Positions 3,108 to 24,368 of a stretch of DNA of 25,260 nucleotides are shown in pieces. Within the stretch, counting starts at the first letter, position 1; each line of letters starts with the position of its first letter. Location: the IMG/VR virus record IMGVR_UViG_3300023296_001674; one strand, given 5' to 3'. The notes under the pieces were generated by a model. The model worked only from the letters and a program-made list of their open reading frames with translations, made no database searches and was not told where the DNA came from. This DNA is from a virus. A program made the translations under genes and the position numbers.

Positions 3108-3394
3108 TTGAGCAAACGAGATCGAATACAGTGTTAACGCGGAACGAGACTGCTAGGAACACTTAAAATATACCTAATATGGGCGCGTTGTGGATGGATT
3201 TCCTTTTGTGGAATGATAAAAGCAATGGTAGGAAGCAAAGCGACCTACTAGGGAAAGCGTTATATGCTTTCCTGATAAGTTATTTTGTATGGAAGTGCCA
3301 TTAAAGCAGAACAATTGGTTTGGCGACCAAGCACCTTCGGGGCATAAAATCTGCTACTACTATACTATTTTAATCATAACTAAGTGTCACAAAA

Positions 3395-3464
3395 TATTGT
3401 ATGGTGTAGTGGTAACACGCTGCCTTTATCGGCGGAGCCGTGGGTTCGAGTCCTACTATGATAT
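3395..3464 (+). tRNA. tRNA-like gene: 7/7 acceptor stem (two G-U), D-arm gtgt/acac, GGTTCGAGTCC T-arm, but only a 6-nt anticodon loop and no encoded CCA
   Basis: Manual cloverleaf; acceptor tattgta pairs with tatgata. Confidence 0.35.
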
Positions 3465-3822
3465 TTGGATTACGTTCAGTGTGCACACCGAACGCCACAA
3501 ATTATCTGTTATTATCGCGATAGTGATAGATAATGTTGGGTCACTTAGTTATGATTAAAGTTTTTAGGGTGTTCGTCTAGTGGATTAGGACGCGCCGCCT
3601 TGGGTAGTTGGAGTTCGATTCTCCTTAGCAACGGTTACGTAAATCCGCACGGTGAGACATTGGTTCGAATCCAATACATGTTAAAATAACGATTTCACAT
3701 GAGATGTATAGTTTTAATGGATAAATCAGGCATGAGCCTTGTGCGGCAAGATAGTGGGTTCGATTCCCCTTGCGTTGAATGTGAAATGATGCTATATTGG
3801 TTTTTTAATATAGGAGATAATA

Positions 3823-8286: not shown

Positions 8287-8362
8287 TTCAGATGACCAAG
8301 CAAGTGAACGGGACCGCCTGTTAAGCGGATATTGCAGGGAGCGTTACCCTGATCTGGAGCCA
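8287..8362 (+). tRNA. tRNA-Asn, anticodon GUU, non-canonical T-loop agcgtta
   Basis: Acceptor ttcagat/atctgga, loop ctgttaa, T-stem caggg/ccctg. Confidence 0.7.
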
Positions 8363-8991
8363 ATAACTTTATATTTTTTGTCCCATTCATTTATTCGATG
8401 GTATAAATCATATAATGATAAACTTGAATGACGATTTTTAGATGAATTTTCTGGCTGTGGCATTATCTTGCAGTTCGCTGGATGTGATATATGATTTGGG
8501 TCTATTTTGTTTACAAATCCATCATGTACACTATACATGTGATCTCTTGTTAATCCGTTTTTATTTTTGGTACTATGATACATGCCCTGTTGATGTATCA
8601 TTATAAAATCAAATTCTTCTGGAAATGTTTGAAATGAAAATATAAATTTACATTGTTCTTTATATTTTATCTTCTCAATCATGTATTCTTGTGGTGTCAC
8701 CCTCATGGCATTTGTGCAAGTAACTGCACAACTTCTTCCGCAATAATATTCACGAGTTCCGGTTATAGGGCTAAATTTATTATTACATGTTGGATTTTTA
8801 CACTCGATTAGTCGTTTTTGATATTTTGTTAAATTTTTTACCGATATTTCTTTTTTGGTGAATATGCAACTACATGTAATATGTGATATTTTACCGTTGC
8901 TTTTGCCATGCATACGTGAATGACCATTCAATGCCATTAAGGATTTAAATTGATTATCGCATATATTACATGTATAAATATCTTTAGACAT
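8344..8991 (-). CDS. HNH-family homing endonuclease paralog (216 aa from the MSKDIYTCNIC start)
   Basis: The ORF track extends further, but GGAGG SD precedes the ATG at 8991; same conserved C-terminal core. Confidence 0.7.
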   Translation of the reverse strand: MSKDIYTCNICDNQFKSLMALNGHSRMHGKSNGKISHITCSCIFTKKEISVKNLTKYQKRLIECKNPTCNNKFSPITGTREYYCGRSCAVTCTNAMRVTPQEYMIEKIKYKEQCKFIFSFQTFPEEFDFIMIHQQGMYHSTKNKNGLTRDHMYSVHDGFVNKIDPNHISHPANCKIMPQPENSSKNRHSSLSLYDLYHRINEWDKKYKVIGSRSG

Positions 8992-9080
8992 TATCAACCT
9001 CCATTGGTTGTTATAGTTTAGAAGATATGGGGAATTCCAGTTCTCTATATCTTCGTTAGTATTTATCAATAACATATTAT

Positions 9081-9166
9081 TCGGATATAGGAGAATTGGT
9101 AGACCCAGAAGATTGTTAATCTTCCGCAGCAATGCATTCCAGGTTCGAGTCCTGGTATCCGAGCCA
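9081..9166 (+). tRNA. type-II-like tRNA (86 nt, Leu-like D-arm GAATTGGTAGA, variable-arm hairpin) whose anticodon loop reads GUU
   Basis: Acceptor tcggata/tatccga perfect, anticodon stem gaaga/tcttc, loop ttgttaa, T-arm ccaggTTCGAGTcctgg. Confidence 0.65.
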
Positions 9167-9167
9167 A

Positions 9168-9240
9168 TAACACCGTAGCGTAGAAAATAGTTACTTCGTT
9201 TCACTCACGACTGGAATGGGTTCGATTCCCATGCCCTGCG
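9168..9240 (+). tRNA. tRNA-like gene with D, anticodon and T arms but no matching 5' acceptor strand; no CCA
   Basis: T-arm atgggTTCGATTcccat; its 3' strand gccctgc pairs only with the downstream fragment at 9244. Confidence 0.35.
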
Positions 9241-13765: not shown

Positions 13766-13843
13766 TGACTAGTAGCTCAGTGGTTTAGAGCGGGGAGTTC
13801 TAAACTCTCGACAGCGTTGGTTCAAATCCAACCTGGTCAACCA
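13766..13843 (+). tRNA. tRNA with anticodon CUA (amber-suppressor-like); U1-A72 acceptor
   Basis: D-arm GCTCAGTGGTTTAGAGC, anticodon stem gggag/ctctc, loop ttctaaa, T-arm gttggTTCAAATccaac, CCA encoded. Confidence 0.6.
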
Positions 13844-14825: not shown

Positions 14826-14900
14826 GCCCCTATAGTACAATGGTTAATATGATCGCCCGGTAAGCGATAGATGAAAGTTCGATTCTTTCTAGAGGCACCA
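14826..14900 (+). tRNA. tRNA-Thr, anticodon GGU
   Basis: Anticodon stem atcgc/gcgat perfect, loop ccggtaa, T-arm gaaagTTCGATTctttc. Confidence 0.8.
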
Positions 14901-14912
14901 ATAAATAACAAT

Positions 14913-15728
14913 ATGACAATGACACCACCAAATATTATAATTTATAGTAATCCACGTTCAGGAACCACATTGCTTCATCATACATTATTATTATTTTTTC
15001 AAGAATATTATGGTGATTATTATTGTGATTTACATGAATTCTTTACAACATCGCATATGACAACGAGACATCGTAATAATATAGATGAAATAAATTCCAT
15101 TACGTATGAACAGAATAACAATATATTAATAAAGACATACAAGCCAGCAGATACCGAAAGCAATGACTTCGAAGAAGAATTGCAACAACGAATTTCACAA
15201 TGGAACAATTGTGTAATAGCTGATAACAATCAGCCGTTTATAACAAAAATATTTCACAAAAATTTGATTGATCACAATTTTTCAAATACAATATTTGATC
15301 ATTCATTAAATTTGGTTCTTGTAAGAAAAAACGTACAAGATATGATATTGAGTTTTATAATATCAAATAGCAACAATAACTGGTTTTATTATGAAAATGA
15401 AAATATAGAAACATTGCGCGGAAGTTTGATTGGTGATATAGATATAATACGCATTCATTTGGAACGCAATAAATTATTTCTTGAAAATATACCCAATATA
15501 CCCAATGCATTAATCATTGATTATGATGAACTTAATGACTATGAATATTTTTATCAAGTTATTATAGATATGGGCATTGTTGATATTCGTGAATTGCATG
15601 CCATGGAAATATTTGATAACATACAGCTAAAACGTAAAATTATTCCAACACCATATACAATGGATCGTATAGATTATTTTAAGAATGCCAATGAAATAAA
15701 AACACTCATGGATGAATATTGTTCTTGA
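14913..15728 (+). CDS. sulfotransferase-like protein (PRSGTT PAPS-binding-like motif near the N-terminus), 272 aa from the ATG at 14913
   Basis: NPRSGTTLLH resembles the sulfotransferase 5'-PSB loop; the ORF track start at 14871 overlaps a tRNA. Confidence 0.45.
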   Translation: MTMTPPNIIIYSNPRSGTTLLHHTLLLFFQEYYGDYYCDLHEFFTTSHMTTRHRNNIDEINSITYEQNNNILIKTYKPADTESNDFEEELQQRISQWNNCVIADNNQPFITKIFHKNLIDHNFSNTIFDHSLNLVLVRKNVQDMILSFIISNSNNNWFYYENENIETLRGSLIGDIDIIRIHLERNKLFLENIPNIPNALIIDYDELNDYEYFYQVIIDMGIVDIRELHAMEIFDNIQLKRKIIPTPYTMDRIDYFKNANEIKTLMDEYCS

Positions 15729-16799: not shown

Positions 16800-17129
16800 A
16801 TGGATAAAGCTGCGCTAAAAACACTTTCCGATACTCTTAATCGGATATGGGGAATCCCTGAACCAAGGGTCTATTATCCGAATAAACATTTCGAAAAACC
16901 TGAACCAGTTGAACAGACAATGTTCTCAGTGTTCATTCTTGACGCTGGTCCTAAACGGATTAACGTCATTAAAGAAATCAGATCAATCTTAGGATTGACC
17001 CTGAAAGAATCAAAGGATTTTGTTGATAATATAGACAAGAGCCTTGTTCAAGAAGACTTAGAAAAATGGGATGCAGATGCATTAGCCGAAACATTATCAA
17101 ATGTTGGAGCAACTGTTGAAGTTTCTTAA
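16800..17129 (+). CDS. ribosomal protein bL12 (L7/L12) C-terminal-domain homolog fused to a novel N-terminal segment (109 aa)
   Basis: FSVFILDAGPKRINVIKEIRSILGLTLKESKDFVDN...DADALAETLSNVGATVEV matches the bL12 CTD pattern. Confidence 0.6.
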   Translation: MDKAALKTLSDTLNRIWGIPEPRVYYPNKHFEKPEPVEQTMFSVFILDAGPKRINVIKEIRSILGLTLKESKDFVDNIDKSLVQEDLEKWDADALAETLSNVGATVEVS

Positions 17130-17241: not shown

Positions 17242-17325
17242 GCGCGTAGCCGGTATGTTGGTACTACCACTGGTCTTCCAAACCAGCGCGAAAGCATTGG
17301 GGTTTGATTCCCCCTACCCGCTCCA
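17242..17325 (+). tRNA. tRNA, anticodon UCC (Gly-like), with an 11-nt extended variable region (84 nt)
   Basis: Acceptor gcgcgta/tacccgc 6/7, D-stem ggta/tacc, anticodon stem ctggt/accag, loop cttccaa, T-arm ggggTTTGATTcccc. Confidence 0.6.
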
Positions 17326-17330
17326 ATCAA

Positions 17331-17405
17331 GCCCCATTCGTATAGTGGTCATTATCTCTGTGTCGTACTCAGAGGACGGCAGTTCGATTCCGCCATGGGG
17401 CACCA
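17331..17405 (+). tRNA. tRNA, anticodon CGU-like (Thr); 9-nt loop alternative
   Basis: Acceptor gccccat/atggggc perfect, anticodon stem ctctg/cagag, T-loop TTCGATT, CCA encoded. Confidence 0.65.
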
Positions 17406-17471
17406 ATTACATATTGCATTATATCCTATTTTTTTATATAATAAATAAAAAGAACAATAGGACACGAAACT

Positions 17472-18023
17472 ATGCGCGGAACATTAGAAGTGATTACTGG
17501 CCCAATGTTTGCCGGTAAGACGACAGAAATAATAAAACGATTATTATGGTCAAAACATCAAGGTAAATCAACAATTATATACAAACCAGCAATGGATGAT
17601 AGATATAGTGAAACTGAAATAGTTACACATACCAAATTTTCATACGAAGCAACATCCATCATTGATAGTTTTAATATCAATCCAACATACGATCATTATT
17701 TTTTTGATGAAATACAGTTTCATGATAAAAATATTGTTCCATCTATAACTAAATTATTAGATGAAGGAAAAAATGTAACGGTGGCTGGTTTAGACGCTGA
17801 TTATAAAGGTGTTGCATTTGCGAACACTGCTACGTTAATGGCGATGGCAGACGAAGTATTTAAGATAAAATCGCATTGTAGTTTATGTGGCAAAGATGCT
17901 GCTAAAACATTTAAAACTGGTTCGACAAGCGACCAGCGCATAGAATTGGGTGAAAATGACTTATACCGTGCCAGATGTAATGAGCATTGGTATGTATCAG
18001 GAACTGACGATAGTTTTTCTTGA
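17472..18023 (+). CDS. tdk: thymidine kinase (TK1 family)
   Basis: P-loop GPMFAGKTTE, C-terminal CxxC...CxxH zinc ribbon; SD agga. Confidence 0.8.
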   Translation: MRGTLEVITGPMFAGKTTEIIKRLLWSKHQGKSTIIYKPAMDDRYSETEIVTHTKFSYEATSIIDSFNINPTYDHYFFDEIQFHDKNIVPSITKLLDEGKNVTVAGLDADYKGVAFANTATLMAMADEVFKIKSHCSLCGKDAAKTFKTGSTSDQRIELGENDLYRARCNEHWYVSGTDDSFS

Positions 18024-18048
18024 CAATATTTTTTATATAGCATATAAT
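18020..18048 (+). promoter_or_regulatory. sigma70-like promoter TTGACA-N17-TATAAT
   Basis: TTGACA 18020-18025, TATAAT 18043-18048, upstream of the desaturase gene. Confidence 0.6.
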
Positions 18049-18079
18049 GTTAGTATACAAAATTTTTAGGAGATATTAA

Positions 18080-19063
18080 ATGGATAACAACAATTACAAC
18101 GATTTAAAACAGCGTTTGGTTAATGCAGGATGTTTCGAACGAGCGACATCGCATTATGTTCTACGTATTACAGCAATTCTAATTGCTTATGTGGGAGCAT
18201 ATTTTGTTCTGCTTACACAGCCACTAGGATTGGTTGCAGTGGGTGCATTGATTATTGCAGCCTTTGCCAGCGTTCAGGCTGGTTTCATTTCACACGATGC
18301 TGGTGATGGCGGTATTACATCAAATAAGATGCTATCTACCGGTATGCGACAATTCTTTTTATCGTTTGTTACTGGTGTGAGTAGTTCATATTTTCATGCA
18401 CTACATAAAGTGCATCACAAAACAATGTTTAAAGGATCATCGAAATCATCCGACACAGTTTCAGAAAATGAATACGAAGGCAAATGGTTGAAGAAATTAG
18501 TTTCACGTGATGGTTTGTTATTCATGGTAACGATGGTTACATTACGGGGATTCACATTCAAATTTGAAAGTGTAAAATATATGCTTAAACACGCCAATAA
18601 AACCGCCGCAGATCAACTGTTGGTGGGATTGCACGTTGTAGCATGGCTGATCGTTCCAATGATGATTATTGGACCAGTAGCCATTCTAAACTATGCATTA
18701 TTGACGTTGTTGATTGGACCTTATATCGGAACGGTATTGGTTATTAATCATGCCGGTATGGTAACAGCAAACCGACAAATGCATTTGCCTAAATTTGAAC
18801 GCGTAGTAAATACTACACGCAATCTTGGTGACGGCGTTTGGAACAATCTGTTCTTCGGTGGTGTAAACAACCATATTGAACACCATTTGTTTCCGGGTGT
18901 GCCAGTGCCAAATCTAGGTGAAGCTAGAAAGATTACTGAAGCCTTTTGTGAAGAACGTGGTATTAAATACACCAAAGCTTCATATTTCAGCGCATTAATC
19001 GAAGCCAAAGACCATTTCAAGGGTTTGTCTTCACAGAGATTAGTTGCTGAAGCACTCAACTAA
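18080..19063 (+). CDS. membrane fatty-acid-desaturase-family protein (desaturase / carotenoid-ketolase-like His boxes)
   Basis: HDAGD, HKVHH and HIEHHLFPGVP boxes with several TM segments; SD aggag. Confidence 0.65.
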   Translation: MDNNNYNDLKQRLVNAGCFERATSHYVLRITAILIAYVGAYFVLLTQPLGLVAVGALIIAAFASVQAGFISHDAGDGGITSNKMLSTGMRQFFLSFVTGVSSSYFHALHKVHHKTMFKGSSKSSDTVSENEYEGKWLKKLVSRDGLLFMVTMVTLRGFTFKFESVKYMLKHANKTAADQLLVGLHVVAWLIVPMMIIGPVAILNYALLTLLIGPYIGTVLVINHAGMVTANRQMHLPKFERVVNTTRNLGDGVWNNLFFGGVNNHIEHHLFPGVPVPNLGEARKITEAFCEERGIKYTKASYFSALIEAKDHFKGLSSQRLVAEALN

Positions 19064-19073
19064 GGGAAACTAT

Positions 19074-19550
19074 ATGTTTAAATTTAATGTATGTAATTAC
19101 AGTGATTCACTGTATTCAATGGACAACTATACCAAGGCTATTGGTATAGTTGATCCAGATGAAAAAGTAACACCATCAGAAAAATATCATGTTGCACGAT
19201 GCCACGATATAGTAATGCAGGAACACCCTTGGGTGGCTCCCACAATAGACCAGTTTGTCGCAATTATGAATTTTGCAGAAGATTTTACAGACGATGATGT
19301 TGTAATGATTCATTGCTCTGCTGGTATATCACGCAGCACTGCAACTGCCATATTGTTATTAATGTTGCATGGCGCTGACGAAGAAGAAGCATTTAATGCT
19401 GTTGAACAAAATAGACCAAACATGAATCCAAACACATTGATTCTTCGCTTTGCTGATGAATTATTAGGAATGGATGGCGGTTTGATTGAATATCATAAAC
19501 AATGGATGGCGAAACGGGTTATTAAACCAGTTAGTTTCGCAGGACAATAA
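19074..19550 (+). CDS. dual-specificity (Cys-based) protein phosphatase
   Basis: CX5R signature HCSAGISRS; SD aaggga before the ATG at 19074 (ORF track start 19044 is less likely). Confidence 0.7.
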   Translation: MFKFNVCNYSDSLYSMDNYTKAIGIVDPDEKVTPSEKYHVARCHDIVMQEHPWVAPTIDQFVAIMNFAEDFTDDDVVMIHCSAGISRSTATAILLLMLHGADEEEAFNAVEQNRPNMNPNTLILRFADELLGMDGGLIEYHKQWMAKRVIKPVSFAGQ

Positions 19551-19562
19551 AAAGGAAATAAT

Positions 19563-19697
19563 ATGCATCGCGATAAATTAAAAACAGACCCAGCCAATAA
19601 AGAGTATATTGACGGTTGGAATAGAATCTTCAATAAAAAAGAAGAAGTAGTTAAACCAAAAAAGAAAACGGCTAAGAAAAAACCTGCTAAGAAATAA
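19563..19697 (+). CDS. small lysine-rich protein (44 aa), absent from the ORF track
   Basis: Strong SD aaaagga upstream of ATG; MHRDKLKTDPANKEYIDGWNRIFNKKEEVVKPKKKTAKKKPAKK. Confidence 0.45.
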   Translation: MHRDKLKTDPANKEYIDGWNRIFNKKEEVVKPKKKTAKKKPAKK

Positions 19698-19704
19698 AAT
19701 TCTA

Positions 19705-19732
19705 TTGACATATATCAACAATAGTGTATTAT
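19705..19732 (+). promoter_or_regulatory. sigma70-like promoter TTGACA-N16-TATTAT
   Basis: TTGACA 19705-19710, TATTAT 19727-19732. Confidence 0.5.
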
Positions 19733-20000: not shown

Positions 20001-20279
20001 ATGAATAAAATTTATGAATTTCATTGGGAAGTTGGTAGAATGGGTGACGTTGAAGGTTTGTTCGTTGCCGATGATGCTGACGTTGCTAATTTGATCGGTA
20101 AAGAAATTTACTTTGGTGAAATTCTTGGAAAACATTCCGAAGTTTATGGAACGTTGGAAAAGGGCGATCTTGTTGTGAAATCAGATGATCCAGAATTTGT
20201 TGAAAAATTCATCGAAATAATGGGTTACGGAACAGTATCTGGTTATAATCCATTTGATTATTATGATCCAGATCAATAA
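20001..20279 (+). CDS. hypothetical acidic protein (92 aa)
   Basis: SD aaagga upstream of ATG. Confidence 0.55.
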   Translation: MNKIYEFHWEVGRMGDVEGLFVADDADVANLIGKEIYFGEILGKHSEVYGTLEKGDLVVKSDDPEFVEKFIEIMGYGTVSGYNPFDYYDPDQ

Positions 20280-23768: not shown

Positions 23769-24368
23769 GTGCGGAAGCATCTACATACACGAACACTGTT
23801 GACACACTACGGAGGTGTCTTCATCGATAATAATGTCGAAGAAGTTATAGTTCCGTCGTTATGGGAACAGCAGACATTTATTGATAAAGCAGGAAGTGAA
23901 ATTGTAAATCAGATGTGGGCATTTGAAGATAAGAAAAATCGCCCCGTATGTTTGATACCAGAAGTTACTGGTGTTATACAAGAAATGTGGCGCGATGATT
24001 GGAGTAAATCCAAACCAAAGCCATATTCTATTTTTTATGTGAATCGTTGTTATCGTTATGAACGACCACAGAAGGGTAGATATAGAGAATTCACACAAAT
24101 CGGATTAGAAATTCTTGGTGATACATCAGGGAATGATTACGATATGGCAATTAATTTATTGCAAAAGTGTCTCGATTGTTTTACTATAGATTATAAACTT
24201 ACAGAAACGGTACAACGCGGTTTGGCGTATTATGTTGATGATGGGTTTGAAGTCGAATGTGAGAAGTTGGGCGCACAGAAGCAAATTGCTGGTGGTGGTC
24301 GATACAATGAAGGTATTGGTTGGGCTATCGGCGTTGATAGATTAATATTGGGGATTGATGATGACTAG
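23769..24368 (+). CDS. minimal class II aaRS catalytic core of the HisRS/HisZ type (motif 1 region FEDKKNRPVCLIPEVT, motif 2 YRYERPQKGRYREFTQ, motif 3 GGGRYNEG), lacking the insertion and anticodon-binding domains
   Basis: Motif recall against E. coli HisS; an upstream ATG at 23741 with SD aaggag opens a different frame (MLRGTRL...), suggesting a frameshift at about 23790. Confidence 0.65.
   Translation: MRKHLHTRTLLTHYGGVFIDNNVEEVIVPSLWEQQTFIDKAGSEIVNQMWAFEDKKNRPVCLIPEVTGVIQEMWRDDWSKSKPKPYSIFYVNRCYRYERPQKGRYREFTQIGLEILGDTSGNDYDMAINLLQKCLDCFTIDYKLTETVQRGLAYYVDDGFEVECEKLGAQKQIAGGGRYNEGIGWAIGVDRLILGIDDD

What the first reader, a model, noticed from the sequence alone, without database searches (positions are those of the whole stretch)
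17472..19550. Thymidine kinase, membrane desaturase and dual-specificity phosphatase cassette
A consensus early promoter (18020) drives a fatty-acid-desaturase-family membrane protein (His boxes HDAGD, HKVHH, HIEHH), immediately followed by a CX5R phosphatase (HCSAGISRS). Both lie downstream of a TK1 thymidine kinase. A lipid desaturase in a phage is an uncommon auxiliary metabolic gene; it could act in membrane remodelling or in carotenoid/sphingolipid-type chemistry.
Basis: partly seen in the sequence, partly recalled or inferred. Interest (0 to 1): 0.5.

Follow-up and report, generated by a model that had tools for sequence, protein, structure and literature searches.

The report
Huge-phage desaturase with altered metal site
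A roughly 570-kb phage carries an intact membrane desaturase-type enzyme from a rare, unstudied branch of the family in which one iron-binding histidine is replaced by aspartate; in bacteria this branch sits next to amide-cleaving enzymes, so the phage probably modifies an amide-linked lipid, not bulk membrane fat, while the neighbouring thymidine kinase and phosphatase are ordinary phage genes that are not functionally tied to it.

Summary
The window contains a TK1 thymidine kinase (17472-18023), a perfect TTGACA-N17-TATAAT promoter (18020-18048), a 327-aa FA_desaturase-family membrane protein (18080-19063) and a 158-aa HCX5R dual-specificity phosphatase (19074-19550). It lies in the tRNA-rich region of a huge phage, since the identical protein occurs on a 570,750-bp contig.

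The "cassette" is not a conserved module. The phosphatase family is common in large phages but never sits next to a desaturase elsewhere, and the desaturase's relatives never sit next to a phosphatase or TK.

The main new result is that "HDAGD" is not a canonical His box. The second metal-ligand His is Asp, and this defines a small clade: all 56 nearest database hits, and 6 of the best 150 representatives among 1.84 billion proteins. The phage copy keeps 53/53 clade-invariant residues.

In 8 of 10 independent cellular loci the clade gene is followed by an amide hydrolase from one of five unrelated families. The figure is 0 of 41 for the canonical-box sister clade. An N-acyl (amide-linked) lipid substrate is therefore the best inference. 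No relative exists in IMG/VR or PHROGs. I rate it a new variant of a known kind, of moderate interest.

The parts
17472..18023 (+). Thymidine kinase (TK1 type), 183 aa. It is an independent upstream gene with P-loop GPMFAGKT (17499-17522) and zinc motif CSLC/CNEH (17877-17888, 17976-17987).
   Evidence: PF00265 E=1.7e-38 and phrog_592 E=5e-37. NCBIfam NF003296 scores 169 bits against a 183-bit cutoff. The best phage relatives are jumbo phages Phosso and Atu_ph07, at about 41% identity.
18020..18048 (+). Perfect sigma-70 consensus promoter TTGACA-N17-TATAAT. Its -35 hexamer overlaps the TK stop codon (TGA 18021-18023). It is the predicted start of the desaturase-DSP-small ORF transcription unit.
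   Evidence: 12/12 match. The window holds 6 sites with at most 1 mismatch against 0.61 expected, all on the + strand. Promoter activity and 'early' timing are inferred, not shown.
18068..18072 (+). Shine-Dalgarno AGGAG, 7 nt upstream of the desaturase ATG.
   Evidence: Read directly from the sequence.
18080..19063 (+). FA_desaturase-superfamily membrane di-iron oxygenase, 327 aa, of the Asp-box (H-x3-D) clade. Predicted ligand motifs are H72-DAG-D76 (18293-18307), H109-KV-HH113 (18404-18418), N223-H224 (18746-18751) and H265-IE-HH269 (18872-18886). Two hydrophobic hairpins lie at about residues 23-75 and 176-221.
19074..19550 (+). Dual-specificity (Cys-based) phosphatase, 158 aa. P-loop H80-C81-SAGIS-R87-S88 (19311-19337); candidate general acid D45 (within 19200-19214). 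It starts 10 nt after the desaturase stop.
   Evidence: PF00782 E=2.7e-9. D45, H80, C81, G84, R87 and S88 are invariant in 9 homologues. AF2 pLDDT 88. Foldseek top hits are DUSP8, Tk-PTP, Slingshot-2, DUSP22 and MKP5.
19563..19697 (+). A 44-aa Lys-rich ORF, 12 nt after the DSP stop, with an AAGGAA Shine-Dalgarno. It is probably the last gene of the unit. Function unknown.
   Evidence: ORF listing and the gene call in L001. No Pfam, PHROG or PADLOC hit.
19705..19732 (+). The next promoter-like site (TTGACA-16-TATTAT, 11/12), marking the probable downstream boundary of the unit.
   Evidence: No terminator-like site was found between 19063 and 19740.

Best explanation
The 327-aa protein is a functional, four-helix membrane di-iron oxygenase of the fatty-acid-desaturase superfamily. 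It belongs to a small, uncharacterised clade in which the second ligand of the first 'His box' is an invariant Asp (H-x3-D-G).

A huge phage of about 570 kb captured the gene long ago from a proteobacterium, since its GC content has drifted to the phage's level. The phage expresses it from its own consensus sigma-70 promoter, together with a DSP-type phosphatase and a 44-aa basic peptide.

In bacteria, the clade gene sits under a divergent TetR regulator and is directly followed by an amide-bond hydrolase: penicillin/AHL-acylase type, ceramidase, amidase-signature, M19 or M20. I therefore infer that the enzyme desaturates or hydroxylates the hydrocarbon part of an N-acyl (amide-linked) lipid or lipid-like signal. 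Candidates are a ceramide-like lipid, an N-acyl amino acid or aminolipid, an N-acyl-homoserine lactone, or another amide-linked acyl chain.

The phage carries only the oxygenase step. It probably uses it to remodel such a host lipid or signal during infection, not to raise bulk phospholipid unsaturation.

The phosphatase is a separately mobile accessory gene of large phages, most like protein DUSPs. TK is ordinary nucleotide salvage.

Shown here: family, fold, motif state, conservation, clade structure, gene neighbourhoods and promoter match. Inferred: metal binding by Asp76, substrate class, co-transcription and infection role.

For: Asp-box clade: D76 aligns with the second His of HExGH in canonical relatives. 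It is invariant in 20/20 clade members. All top-56 database hits have Asp and every hit from rank 57 on has His. Only 6 of the best 150 representatives from 1.84 billion proteins have Asp. The phage protein nests inside the clade.

Still functional: 53/53 invariant and 80/88 near-invariant clade positions are retained, and the identical protein was recovered on 5 contigs.

Substrate inference: an amide hydrolase lies immediately downstream in 8 of 10 independent clade loci (at most 72% pairwise identity), drawn from five unrelated families:
- M20 (L002, L035)
- M19 (L003)
- ceramidase followed by Penicil_amidase (L005)
- Penicil_amidase (L008, L009, L112)
- Amidase PF01425 (L010)

The figure is 0/41 in the canonical-box clade, whose downstream partners are TAtT/TRAP (21) and FMO-like monooxygenases (17). 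Fisher p=7e-8. TetR is divergent upstream in L003, L005, L008, L010 and L112.

Old transfer: the gene is 39.5% GC against 36.3% for the window and 47-65% for the loci of cellular relatives.

Transcription unit: 12/12 promoter, SD sites, 10- and 12-nt gene spacings, and the next promoter-like site at 19705.
Against: No member of the clade has been characterised, and I found no literature on it, so the substrate class rests on gene neighbourhood alone.

The phage copy has no adjacent amide hydrolase; the only related gene seen is an AstE/AspA-family gene about 7 kb downstream, outside the window.

TetR control (known for DesT-type regulation of ordinary desaturase genes) and a PF00487 fold are equally compatible with an ordinary acyl-lipid or acyl-CoA desaturase.

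The M19 and M20 partners could instead point to a peptide or amino-acid substrate.

The loci are metagenomic, and the 41 comparison loci are phylogenetically related, so the Fisher p-value overstates independence.

No electron-donor gene was identified.
Confidence: 0.45

Rival explanations
1. It is a classical viral fatty-acid desaturase AMG. The enzyme introduces double bonds into ester-linked acyl chains of host membrane phospholipids (or acyl-CoA) to raise membrane fluidity, for example in cold or deep marine water. This would aid replication, assembly or lysis, as proposed for cyanophage and Arctic-brine viral FADs.
For: It is a PF00487 member with the desaturase fold and four TM helices. 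There is published precedent for phage FADs with this proposed role (PMC5776448, PMC7300359). TetR-type regulators are known to control ordinary bacterial desaturase genes (established knowledge: DesT of Pseudomonas).
Against: The protein is not of the DesC (Delta-9) type seen in cyanophages, which have HX4H and HX3HH boxes. It belongs to a rare clade with an altered metal ligand. The cellular members of that clade sit in inducible operons with amide hydrolases, not in housekeeping lipid-synthesis contexts. The clade is too sparse, at 14 loci in 185,579 species genomes, to be a general membrane-homeostasis enzyme.
Confidence: 0.28
2. It is a non-lipid small-molecule oxygenase. The enzyme hydroxylates or desaturates an amino acid, dipeptide or N-acyl amino-acid head group, as some PF00487-superfamily enzymes act on polar substrates. 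The partner peptidases then process that product.
For: The best NCBIfam match is the GntB L-arginine hydroxylase model (E=8e-15). M19 (dehydropeptidase family) and M20 (aminoacylase family) partners occur in L002, L003 and L035. A DUF2817/AstE-AspA deacylase gene is adjacent in L002, and an AstE/AspA-family gene lies about 7 kb downstream in the phage.
Against: The GntB score is 55 bits against a 380-bit cutoff, so this is not an equivalog. The commonest partners, Penicil_amidase (AHL-acylase type) and PF05875 ceramidase, act on long-chain N-acyl compounds. The protein is deeply membrane-embedded like lipid desaturases.
Confidence: 0.12
3. The desaturase and phosphatase form a two-enzyme lipid pathway. 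The DSP would be a lipid phosphatase (PTPMT1-, PTEN- or MptpB-like) acting on a phospholipid or phosphorylated sphingoid or lipid intermediate, which the oxygenase also modifies.
For: The two genes are 10 nt apart under one promoter. In another phage lineage (L028/L113) the DSP homologue directly follows a class-3 lipase.
Against: The pairing occurs only in this phage. Neighbours of the DSP in 12 viral loci are heterogeneous: ART-PolyVal 3, Ro60/TROVE 2, Lipase_3 1. The three metagenomic contexts also differ. The P-loop HCSAGISRS and the fold match protein DUSPs and archaeal PTPs. No lipid or RNA phosphatase is among the top 50 structural hits; PTPMT1 appears only weakly by sequence, at E=0.014.
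Confidence: 0.08
4. It is an inactive relic. Loss of the second histidine of box 1 destroyed the di-iron site, and the gene is decaying cargo.
For: The canonical eight-His motif is incomplete, with HDAGD in place of HxxxH.
Against: The Asp is invariant across a whole clade of cellular proteins. Carboxylates are competent iron ligands (established knowledge from soluble di-iron enzymes). The phage copy retains 53/53 invariant positions despite about 50% overall divergence. The ORF is intact with a strong promoter and SD. The identical sequence recurs on 5 contigs.
Confidence: 0.03

Closest known systems
Cyanophage-encoded lipid desaturases (vFAD, DesC-like Delta-9; Roitman et al. 2017, PMC5776448) and viral FADs of Arctic brines (PMC7300359)
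   Same: They are phage-borne membrane desaturase-superfamily genes acquired from hosts and regarded as auxiliary metabolic genes.
   Different: Those have canonical His motifs (HX4H, HX3HH) and clear acyl-lipid desaturase orthology. The window's protein belongs to a different, uncharacterised clade with H-x3-D in box 1. It has no relative in IMG/VR or PHROGs, and its cellular relatives are linked to amide hydrolases.
Microbacterium phage Min1 gp73 ('acyl-CoA desaturase')
   Same: It is the only desaturase-family hit among 50,697 catalogued phage genomes. It is a full-length PF00487 protein with the IEHHLFP third box.
   Different: Identity is only 27%. It has a canonical first box (HEAAH) and a front-end-type QIEHH third box. 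The host is an actinobacterium and the phage is 46 kb.
Canonical-box sister clade (HExGH...HIEHH), mainly from soil bacteria
   Same: Identity is 33-40%. Length, topology, and second and third boxes are the same. PF05875 ceramidase also appears in some of its operons.
   Different: It has His, not Asp, at the second box-1 position. The immediate partners are TAtT/TRAP transporters or FMO-like flavin monooxygenases under a sigma-54 activator, and never an amide hydrolase in the adjacent position (0/41).
Structurally solved membrane di-iron enzymes: Chlamydomonas Orf2971/Ycf2-FtsHi complex desaturase-domain subunit (8xks_K), AlkB (8sbb/8f6t) and SCD1 (4ymk)
   Different: Sequence identity is 11-14%. 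No PDB entry is detectable by sequence. All known ligand sets in this superfamily are His-based (established knowledge: Shanklin 1994; SCD1 structures 2015), whereas this protein has Asp at one position.
Dual-specificity phosphatases (MKP/DUSP family; archaeal Tk-PTP); phage DSPs phrog_32716 and phrog_10650
   Same: It has the HCX5R(S) P-loop (HCSAGISRS, close to the MKP motif HCLAGISRS, the latter from memory), an upstream Asp, and the DUSP fold.
   Different: It is a compact 158-aa stand-alone domain of a lineage confined to large-phage contigs. Only 8 relatives turned up in the word-indexed 5.8-billion-protein search, though 67 loci were found in IMG/VR. The substrate is unknown.
TK1-type thymidine kinases of large phages (T4 tk; Atu_ph07, Phosso)
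   Same: It matches PF00265 over the full length, with the P-loop and zinc motif.
   Different: Nothing notable. It is about 41% identical to the nearest phage TKs.

Membership tests
FA_desaturase superfamily (Pfam PF00487) | Profile match above the curated gathering score over the whole domain | tested here: met
   105.7 bits against a cutoff of 29.7; residues 51-299 match profile positions 4-251 of 253.
FA_desaturase superfamily (Pfam PF00487) | Membrane desaturase fold with two hydrophobic hairpins (four TM helices) and a cytosolic cap | tested here: met
FA_desaturase superfamily (Pfam PF00487) | Canonical first His box H-x(3-4)-H, with both residues as di-iron ligands | tested here: not met
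   The sequence is H72-D-A-G-D76. Asp aligns with the second His of HExGH relatives and is invariant in the clade. This makes the protein a variant within the superfamily, not a non-member.
FA_desaturase superfamily (Pfam PF00487) | Second (H-x2-HH) and third (H/Q-x2-HH) His boxes, plus the N-H ligand in TM4 | tested here: met
   H109-KV-HH113, N223-H224 and H265-IE-HH269 are all invariant.
FA_desaturase superfamily (Pfam PF00487) | Di-iron binding and O2/electron-donor-dependent desaturation or hydroxylation | not testable with these tools
   This requires expression, metal analysis and activity assays.
DesC-type Delta-9 acyl-lipid desaturase (the kind found in cyanophages) | HX4H plus two HX3HH motifs, and orthology to cyanobacterial DesC | tested here: not met
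   The motifs here are HX3D, HX2HH and HX2HH. The motifs of cyanophage vFAD are taken from PMC5776448. No cyanophage hit appeared in tblastn of the phage records.
Carotenoid hydroxylase/ketolase (CrtR/CrtW) | NCBIfam equivalog score for CrtR (NF045688) at or above the cutoff | tested here: not met
   19.2 bits against a cutoff of 475.
GntB L-arginine hydroxylase | NCBIfam equivalog score (NF041365) at or above the cutoff | tested here: not met
   55 bits against a cutoff of 380.
Dual-specificity phosphatase (PF00782, DSPc) | Profile match above the gathering score, an HCX5R(S/T) P-loop, a conserved upstream Asp, and the DUSP fold | tested here: met
   37.4 bits against a cutoff of 33.5. H80-C81-x5-R87-S88 and D45 are invariant in 9 homologues. 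Foldseek E=2.5e-6 to DUSP8, with Tk-PTP, SSH2 and DUSP22 also among the top hits.
Dual-specificity phosphatase (PF00782, DSPc) | Substrate class (protein, lipid or RNA) | not testable with these tools
   Only indirect evidence is available: the top structural neighbours are protein DUSPs, and genomic neighbours are heterogeneous.
Thymidine kinase TK1 (PF00265) | Full-length profile match, P-loop and Zn-binding Cys/His motif | tested here: met
   E=1.7e-38 over profile positions 1-176 of 176. GPMFAGKT, CSLC and CNEH are present. The NCBIfam equivalog NF003296 scores 169 against 183, just under the cutoff.
Sigma-70 promoter | -35 TTGACA and -10 TATAAT hexamers with a 17-nt spacer | tested here: met
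   12/12 at 18020-18048, with enrichment of near-consensus sites on the coding strand. Transcription itself was not tested.

The most novel reading that the evidence does not exclude
The H-x3-D clade is a new functional class of membrane di-iron oxygenase with a His8/Asp1 ligand sphere. It acts on amide-linked lipids or lipid signals such as N-acyl-homoserine lactones, N-acyl amino acids or aminolipids, and ceramide-like lipids. A huge phage has co-opted it to rewrite a host envelope lipid or quorum-sensing-type signal during infection. That would be an auxiliary function not yet described for any phage.
Probability: 0.3. Interest if true: 0.7.

Novelty: new variant of a known kind. Interest (0 to 1): 0.45.

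Why it matters
Phage-encoded desaturases have so far been interpreted only as membrane-fluidity helpers. This one comes from a rare branch of the family in which a supposedly universal metal-binding histidine is replaced by aspartate. In bacteria, that branch's genes are wired to amide-cleaving enzymes.

If the inference holds, two things follow. It identifies a new substrate class, and possibly new metal-site chemistry, for membrane di-iron enzymes, which remain structurally and mechanistically poorly understood. It also shows that huge phages can manipulate amide-linked lipids or lipid signals of their hosts.

The work gives a concrete, testable entry point: one 327-aa protein, one diagnostic residue (D76), and a defined panel of candidate substrates.

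The TK and the phosphatase are routine large-phage accessory genes and do not add to the interest.

Tried and rejected
- Megablast of 17300-19700 against INPHARED found no match, so no annotated close relative exists.
- Foldseek against afdb50 was unavailable.
- The IMG/VR scan for desaturase relatives found none.
- Literature searches for the HDAGD motif, for desaturase plus acylase/ceramidase/TetR operons, and for huge-phage desaturases turned up nothing relevant.
- PADLOC gave no defence-system match for any of the six proteins tested.
- The idea that the DSP is habitually paired with a lipid enzyme was rejected. Only one lineage (L028/L113) has Lipase_3 upstream, and the other neighbours are unrelated.
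- The idea of synteny between this window and other DSP-bearing phage contigs was rejected. Apart from the DSP, tblastn found only one weak ORF match (37% identity, w16329-16586) and two short matches (24 and 29 aa).
- The idea that H-to-D marks a decaying gene was rejected.
- The TTG at 19044 as the DSP start was rejected in favour of ATG 19074.
- The terminator-like hairpin at 18266 lies inside the desaturase ORF. I treat it as a chance match, since 8 were found against 4.8 expected.
- The GntB review text describes that enzyme differently from what the NCBIfam match implies. I therefore used only the score and cutoff, not a mechanistic analogy.
Full report
**1. What is in the sequence**

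The ORF list and raw sequence confirm three consecutive + strand genes.
- TK at 17472-18023 (183 aa).
- A 327-aa ORF at 18080-19063.
- A phosphatase ORF ending at 19550.

Pfam supports all three assignments.
- TK: PF00265, E=1.7e-38, full length.
- FA_desaturase: PF00487, E=4.4e-30, 105.7 bits against a cutoff of 29.7, covering profile positions 4-251 of 253.
- DSPc: PF00782, E=2.7e-9, 37.4 bits against a cutoff of 33.5.

The promoter claim is exact. TTGACA-N17-TATAAT lies at 18020-18048, a 12/12 match and the best site in a 9-kb scan. The window has six sites with at most one mismatch against 0.61 expected, all on the coding strand.

An AGGAG Shine-Dalgarno lies 7 nt before the desaturase ATG. 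The phosphatase starts at ATG 19074, 10 nt after the desaturase stop. That start agrees with the gene call on the source contig and with the N-termini of its homologues.

A 44-aa Lys-rich ORF follows after 12 nt, and the next promoter-like site is at 19705. The likely transcription unit is therefore promoter, desaturase-like gene, DSP, small ORF. TK lies upstream of that promoter.

**2. Genomic setting**

The window has 27 tRNA genes, all on the + strand, and is 36% GC. A protein identical to the desaturase-like ORF occurs on five contigs, the longest 570,750 bp. Aminoacyl-tRNA-synthetase genes lie nearby.

Flanking genes match PHROGs and phage genes. ORF 20001-20279 is 69% identical to a Vibrio phage S4-7 protein. 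TK is closest to the 470-490 kb jumbo phages Phosso and Atu_ph07.

No DNA-level match exists in 50,697 phage records. This is the tRNA/accessory region of an uncultivated huge phage, and its host is probably a gammaproteobacterium. That host guess rests on the Vibrio-phage-like neighbouring gene and on the taxonomy of the desaturase relatives.

**3. The desaturase-like protein is intact but non-canonical**

An AF2 model built on 21 sequences is confident (pLDDT 87, pTM 0.85). It shows two long helical hairpins at residues 23-75 and 176-221, which matches the hydropathy profile.

The second box (H109-KV-HH113), the N223-H224 pair and the third box (H265-IE-HH269) are canonical and invariant. 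The first box is H72-D-A-G-D76. In the alignment with homologues, D76 occupies the column of the second His of the HExGH box of the more distant relatives.

This is not a lesion of the phage copy.
- D76 is invariant in 20/20 members of the closer clade.
- All 56 top-ranked database hits carry Asp, and every hit from rank 57 onward carries His.
- In an exhaustive phmmer search of 1.84 billion cluster representatives, only 55 proteins reach E≤1e-30. Only 6 of the best 150 have Asp (ranks 1, 2, 3 and 6, plus two fragments), against 133 with His.
- A neighbour-joining tree puts the phage protein inside this 'D clade' on a long branch. Its mean identity to clade members is 48%, against 51-68% (mostly 56-68%) among the cellular members themselves.
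- The phage copy retains 53 of 53 positions invariant in the 19 cellular members and 80 of 88 near-invariant ones.

Its GC content (39.5%) has drifted to the phage level, while cellular relatives sit in loci of 47-65% GC. The gene is therefore an old acquisition kept under purifying selection.

**4. What the clade does: evidence from gene neighbourhoods**

I collected cellular loci by exact-protein look-up, a GTDB species-genome scan and a metagenome scan.

Ten independent D-clade loci resulted, with desaturase genes at most 72% identical to each other. In eight of them, the gene immediately downstream on the same strand is an amide-bond hydrolase, drawn from five unrelated families.
- Peptidase_M20: L002 and L035.
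- Peptidase_M19: L003.
- PF05875 ceramidase followed by Penicil_amidase: L005.
- Penicil_amidase: L008, L009 and L112. In L112 its start overlaps the desaturase gene's end by 4 bases.
- Amidase-signature PF01425: L010.

The two exceptions are an IS insertion (L007) and a contig end (L011). A divergent TetR (TetR_N plus TetR_C_33) lies upstream in five loci.

As a control, I scanned the downstream genes of 41 loci from the canonical HExGH clade. There, 21 are the TRAP-transporter T-component TAtT, 17 are FMO-like flavin monooxygenases, and none is an amide hydrolase. A PF05875 ceramidase does appear at the far end of some of those operons, which are driven by a sigma-54 activator. Fisher's exact p is 7e-8, with the caveat that the loci are phylogenetically related.

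Replacement of the partner by non-homologous enzymes that share one chemistry, N-acyl amide hydrolysis, is the classic signature of a functional link. I therefore infer that D-clade enzymes act in an inducible pathway on an N-acyl, amide-linked and probably long-chain substrate. Which substrate, and whether the reaction is desaturation or hydroxylation, remains unknown. No paper I could find addresses this clade.

**5. Rarity in viruses**

No PHROG family matches. The IMG/VR scan of 2.9 million viral contigs gave no relative.

tblastn of INPHARED found only Microbacterium phage Min1 gp73, at 27% identity. That protein has canonical HEAAH and QIEHH boxes.

Phage desaturases are nonetheless a known category. 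DesC-like Delta-9 enzymes occur in cyanophages (PMC5776448) and FADs occur in Arctic brine viruses (PMC7300359). Both are interpreted as membrane-fluidity AMGs.

**6. The phosphatase**

The catalytic residues D45, H80, C81, G84, R87 and S88 are invariant in nine homologues. The AF2 model (pLDDT 88) matches DUSP8, Tk-PTP/ShufPTP, Slingshot-2, DUSP22 and MKP5. By sequence the best PDB hit is DUSP16.

Its close relatives all lie on phage-like contigs of up to 257 kb. The family occurs in 67 IMG/VR loci, many on contigs of 95-457 kb.

Its neighbours vary.
- A HisKA kinase two genes upstream and PTH2 directly downstream (L023).
- A QueC-like gene (L026).
- Lipase_3 (L028 and L113).
- ART-PolyVal, Ro60/TROVE and others.

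None has a desaturase nearby. Beyond the DSP itself, this window shares with those contigs only one weak ORF match and two short matches. The DSP is thus a mobile accessory gene of large phages, and its adjacency to the desaturase is specific to this phage. It is most likely a protein phosphatase, but a lipid or RNA substrate is not excluded.

**7. Assessment**

The family assignments, the promoter and the rarity claim hold. The carotenoid option fails, with CrtR at 19 bits against 475, and GntB equivalence fails at 55 bits against 380. The three genes do not form a conserved cassette.

The most likely mechanism is an Asp-variant di-iron oxygenase that modifies an amide-linked host lipid or lipid signal, expressed from a strong sigma-70 promoter (confidence about 0.45).

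The rivals are as follows.
- Classical phospholipid desaturation for membrane fluidity: 0.28.
- A polar small-molecule substrate: 0.12.
- A coupled desaturase/lipid-phosphatase pathway: 0.08.
- An inactive relic: 0.03.

I rate it a new variant of a known kind: a phage-encoded desaturase-family AMG, but from an uncharacterised clade with an altered metal ligand and a distinctive genomic association. Interest is moderate (0.45). The finding is not startling, but it yields a sharply testable hypothesis about both membrane di-iron chemistry and the manipulation of host lipids by huge phages.

Noticed in passing
window 16800-17129 (+): A 109-aa ORF whose C-terminal 67 residues match the ribosomal protein L7/L12 C-terminal domain (PF00542, E=6.6e-19). 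The phage therefore encodes a stand-alone bL12-CTD-like protein just upstream of tRNA-Thr and TK.
   Followed up: partly
window 13766-13843 (+): A tRNA with a CUA anticodon, which reads amber and which ARAGORN labels 'Pyl'. TAG is nevertheless used as the stop in 6 of 36 + strand ORFs of at least 60 aa. This may be a suppressor tRNA; whether any late genes carry in-frame TAG was not examined.
   Followed up: partly
window 3394-25210: There are 27 tRNA genes, all on the + strand. They include several duplicates (3 Asp-GUC, 3 Lys, 3 Val, 2 Phe, 2 Ile, 2 Gly-GCC) and one odd 'tRNA-???' with a two-base anticodon call at 3394-3465.
   Followed up: no
window 23769-24368 (+); L001 17292-20984: A truncated 199-aa class-II aminoacyl-tRNA-synthetase core, HisRS-like (PF13393, 3e-14). 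Just beyond the window end the source contig encodes a His_Phos_1 phosphatase, an AstE/AspA-family deacylase-like protein (183 aa) and an AspRS-like protein of 604 aa. The AstE/AspA gene is of interest because a DUF2817/AstE_AspA gene adjoins the cellular desaturase homologue in L002.
   Followed up: partly
window 14871-15728 (+): A 285-aa ORF with a weak sulfotransferase-domain match (PF00685, E=2.8e-5, 24.1 bits against a cutoff of 22).
   Followed up: no
window 1774, 2681, 6201, 14913, 18020, 25220 (+): Near-consensus sigma-70 promoters (at most 1 mismatch, 17-nt spacer) are about 10-fold enriched and all lie on the coding strand. A second perfect 12/12 site is at 2681-2709.
   Followed up: partly
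window 19563-19697 (+): A 44-aa ORF with a very Lys-rich C-terminus (KPKKKTAKKKPAKK), apparently co-transcribed after the phosphatase. It has no family match.
   Followed up: no
L028 7006-8486; L113 3051-4531: In another large-phage lineage, the DSP homologue (56-58% identical) is directly preceded by a class-3 lipase gene (PF01764, E=5e-26). This is the only other case of a lipid-active enzyme next to this DSP family.
   Followed up: partly
L029-L033, L012 and about 40 metagenomic loci (L038-L097): The canonical-box sister clade forms conserved operons, mostly in soil bacteria. The order is sigma-54 activator, desaturase-like gene, TAtT, TRAP transporter (DctP/DctQM), LuxR-type small regulator, then PF05875 ceramidase or an FMO-like monooxygenase. 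This looks like an uncharacterised uptake and catabolic system for a hydrophobic amine or amide.
   Followed up: partly
window 8344-9204 (-): One of the few minus-strand ORFs (about 286 aa) carries a C2H2-type zinc-finger match (PF13912, E=1e-5).
   Followed up: no
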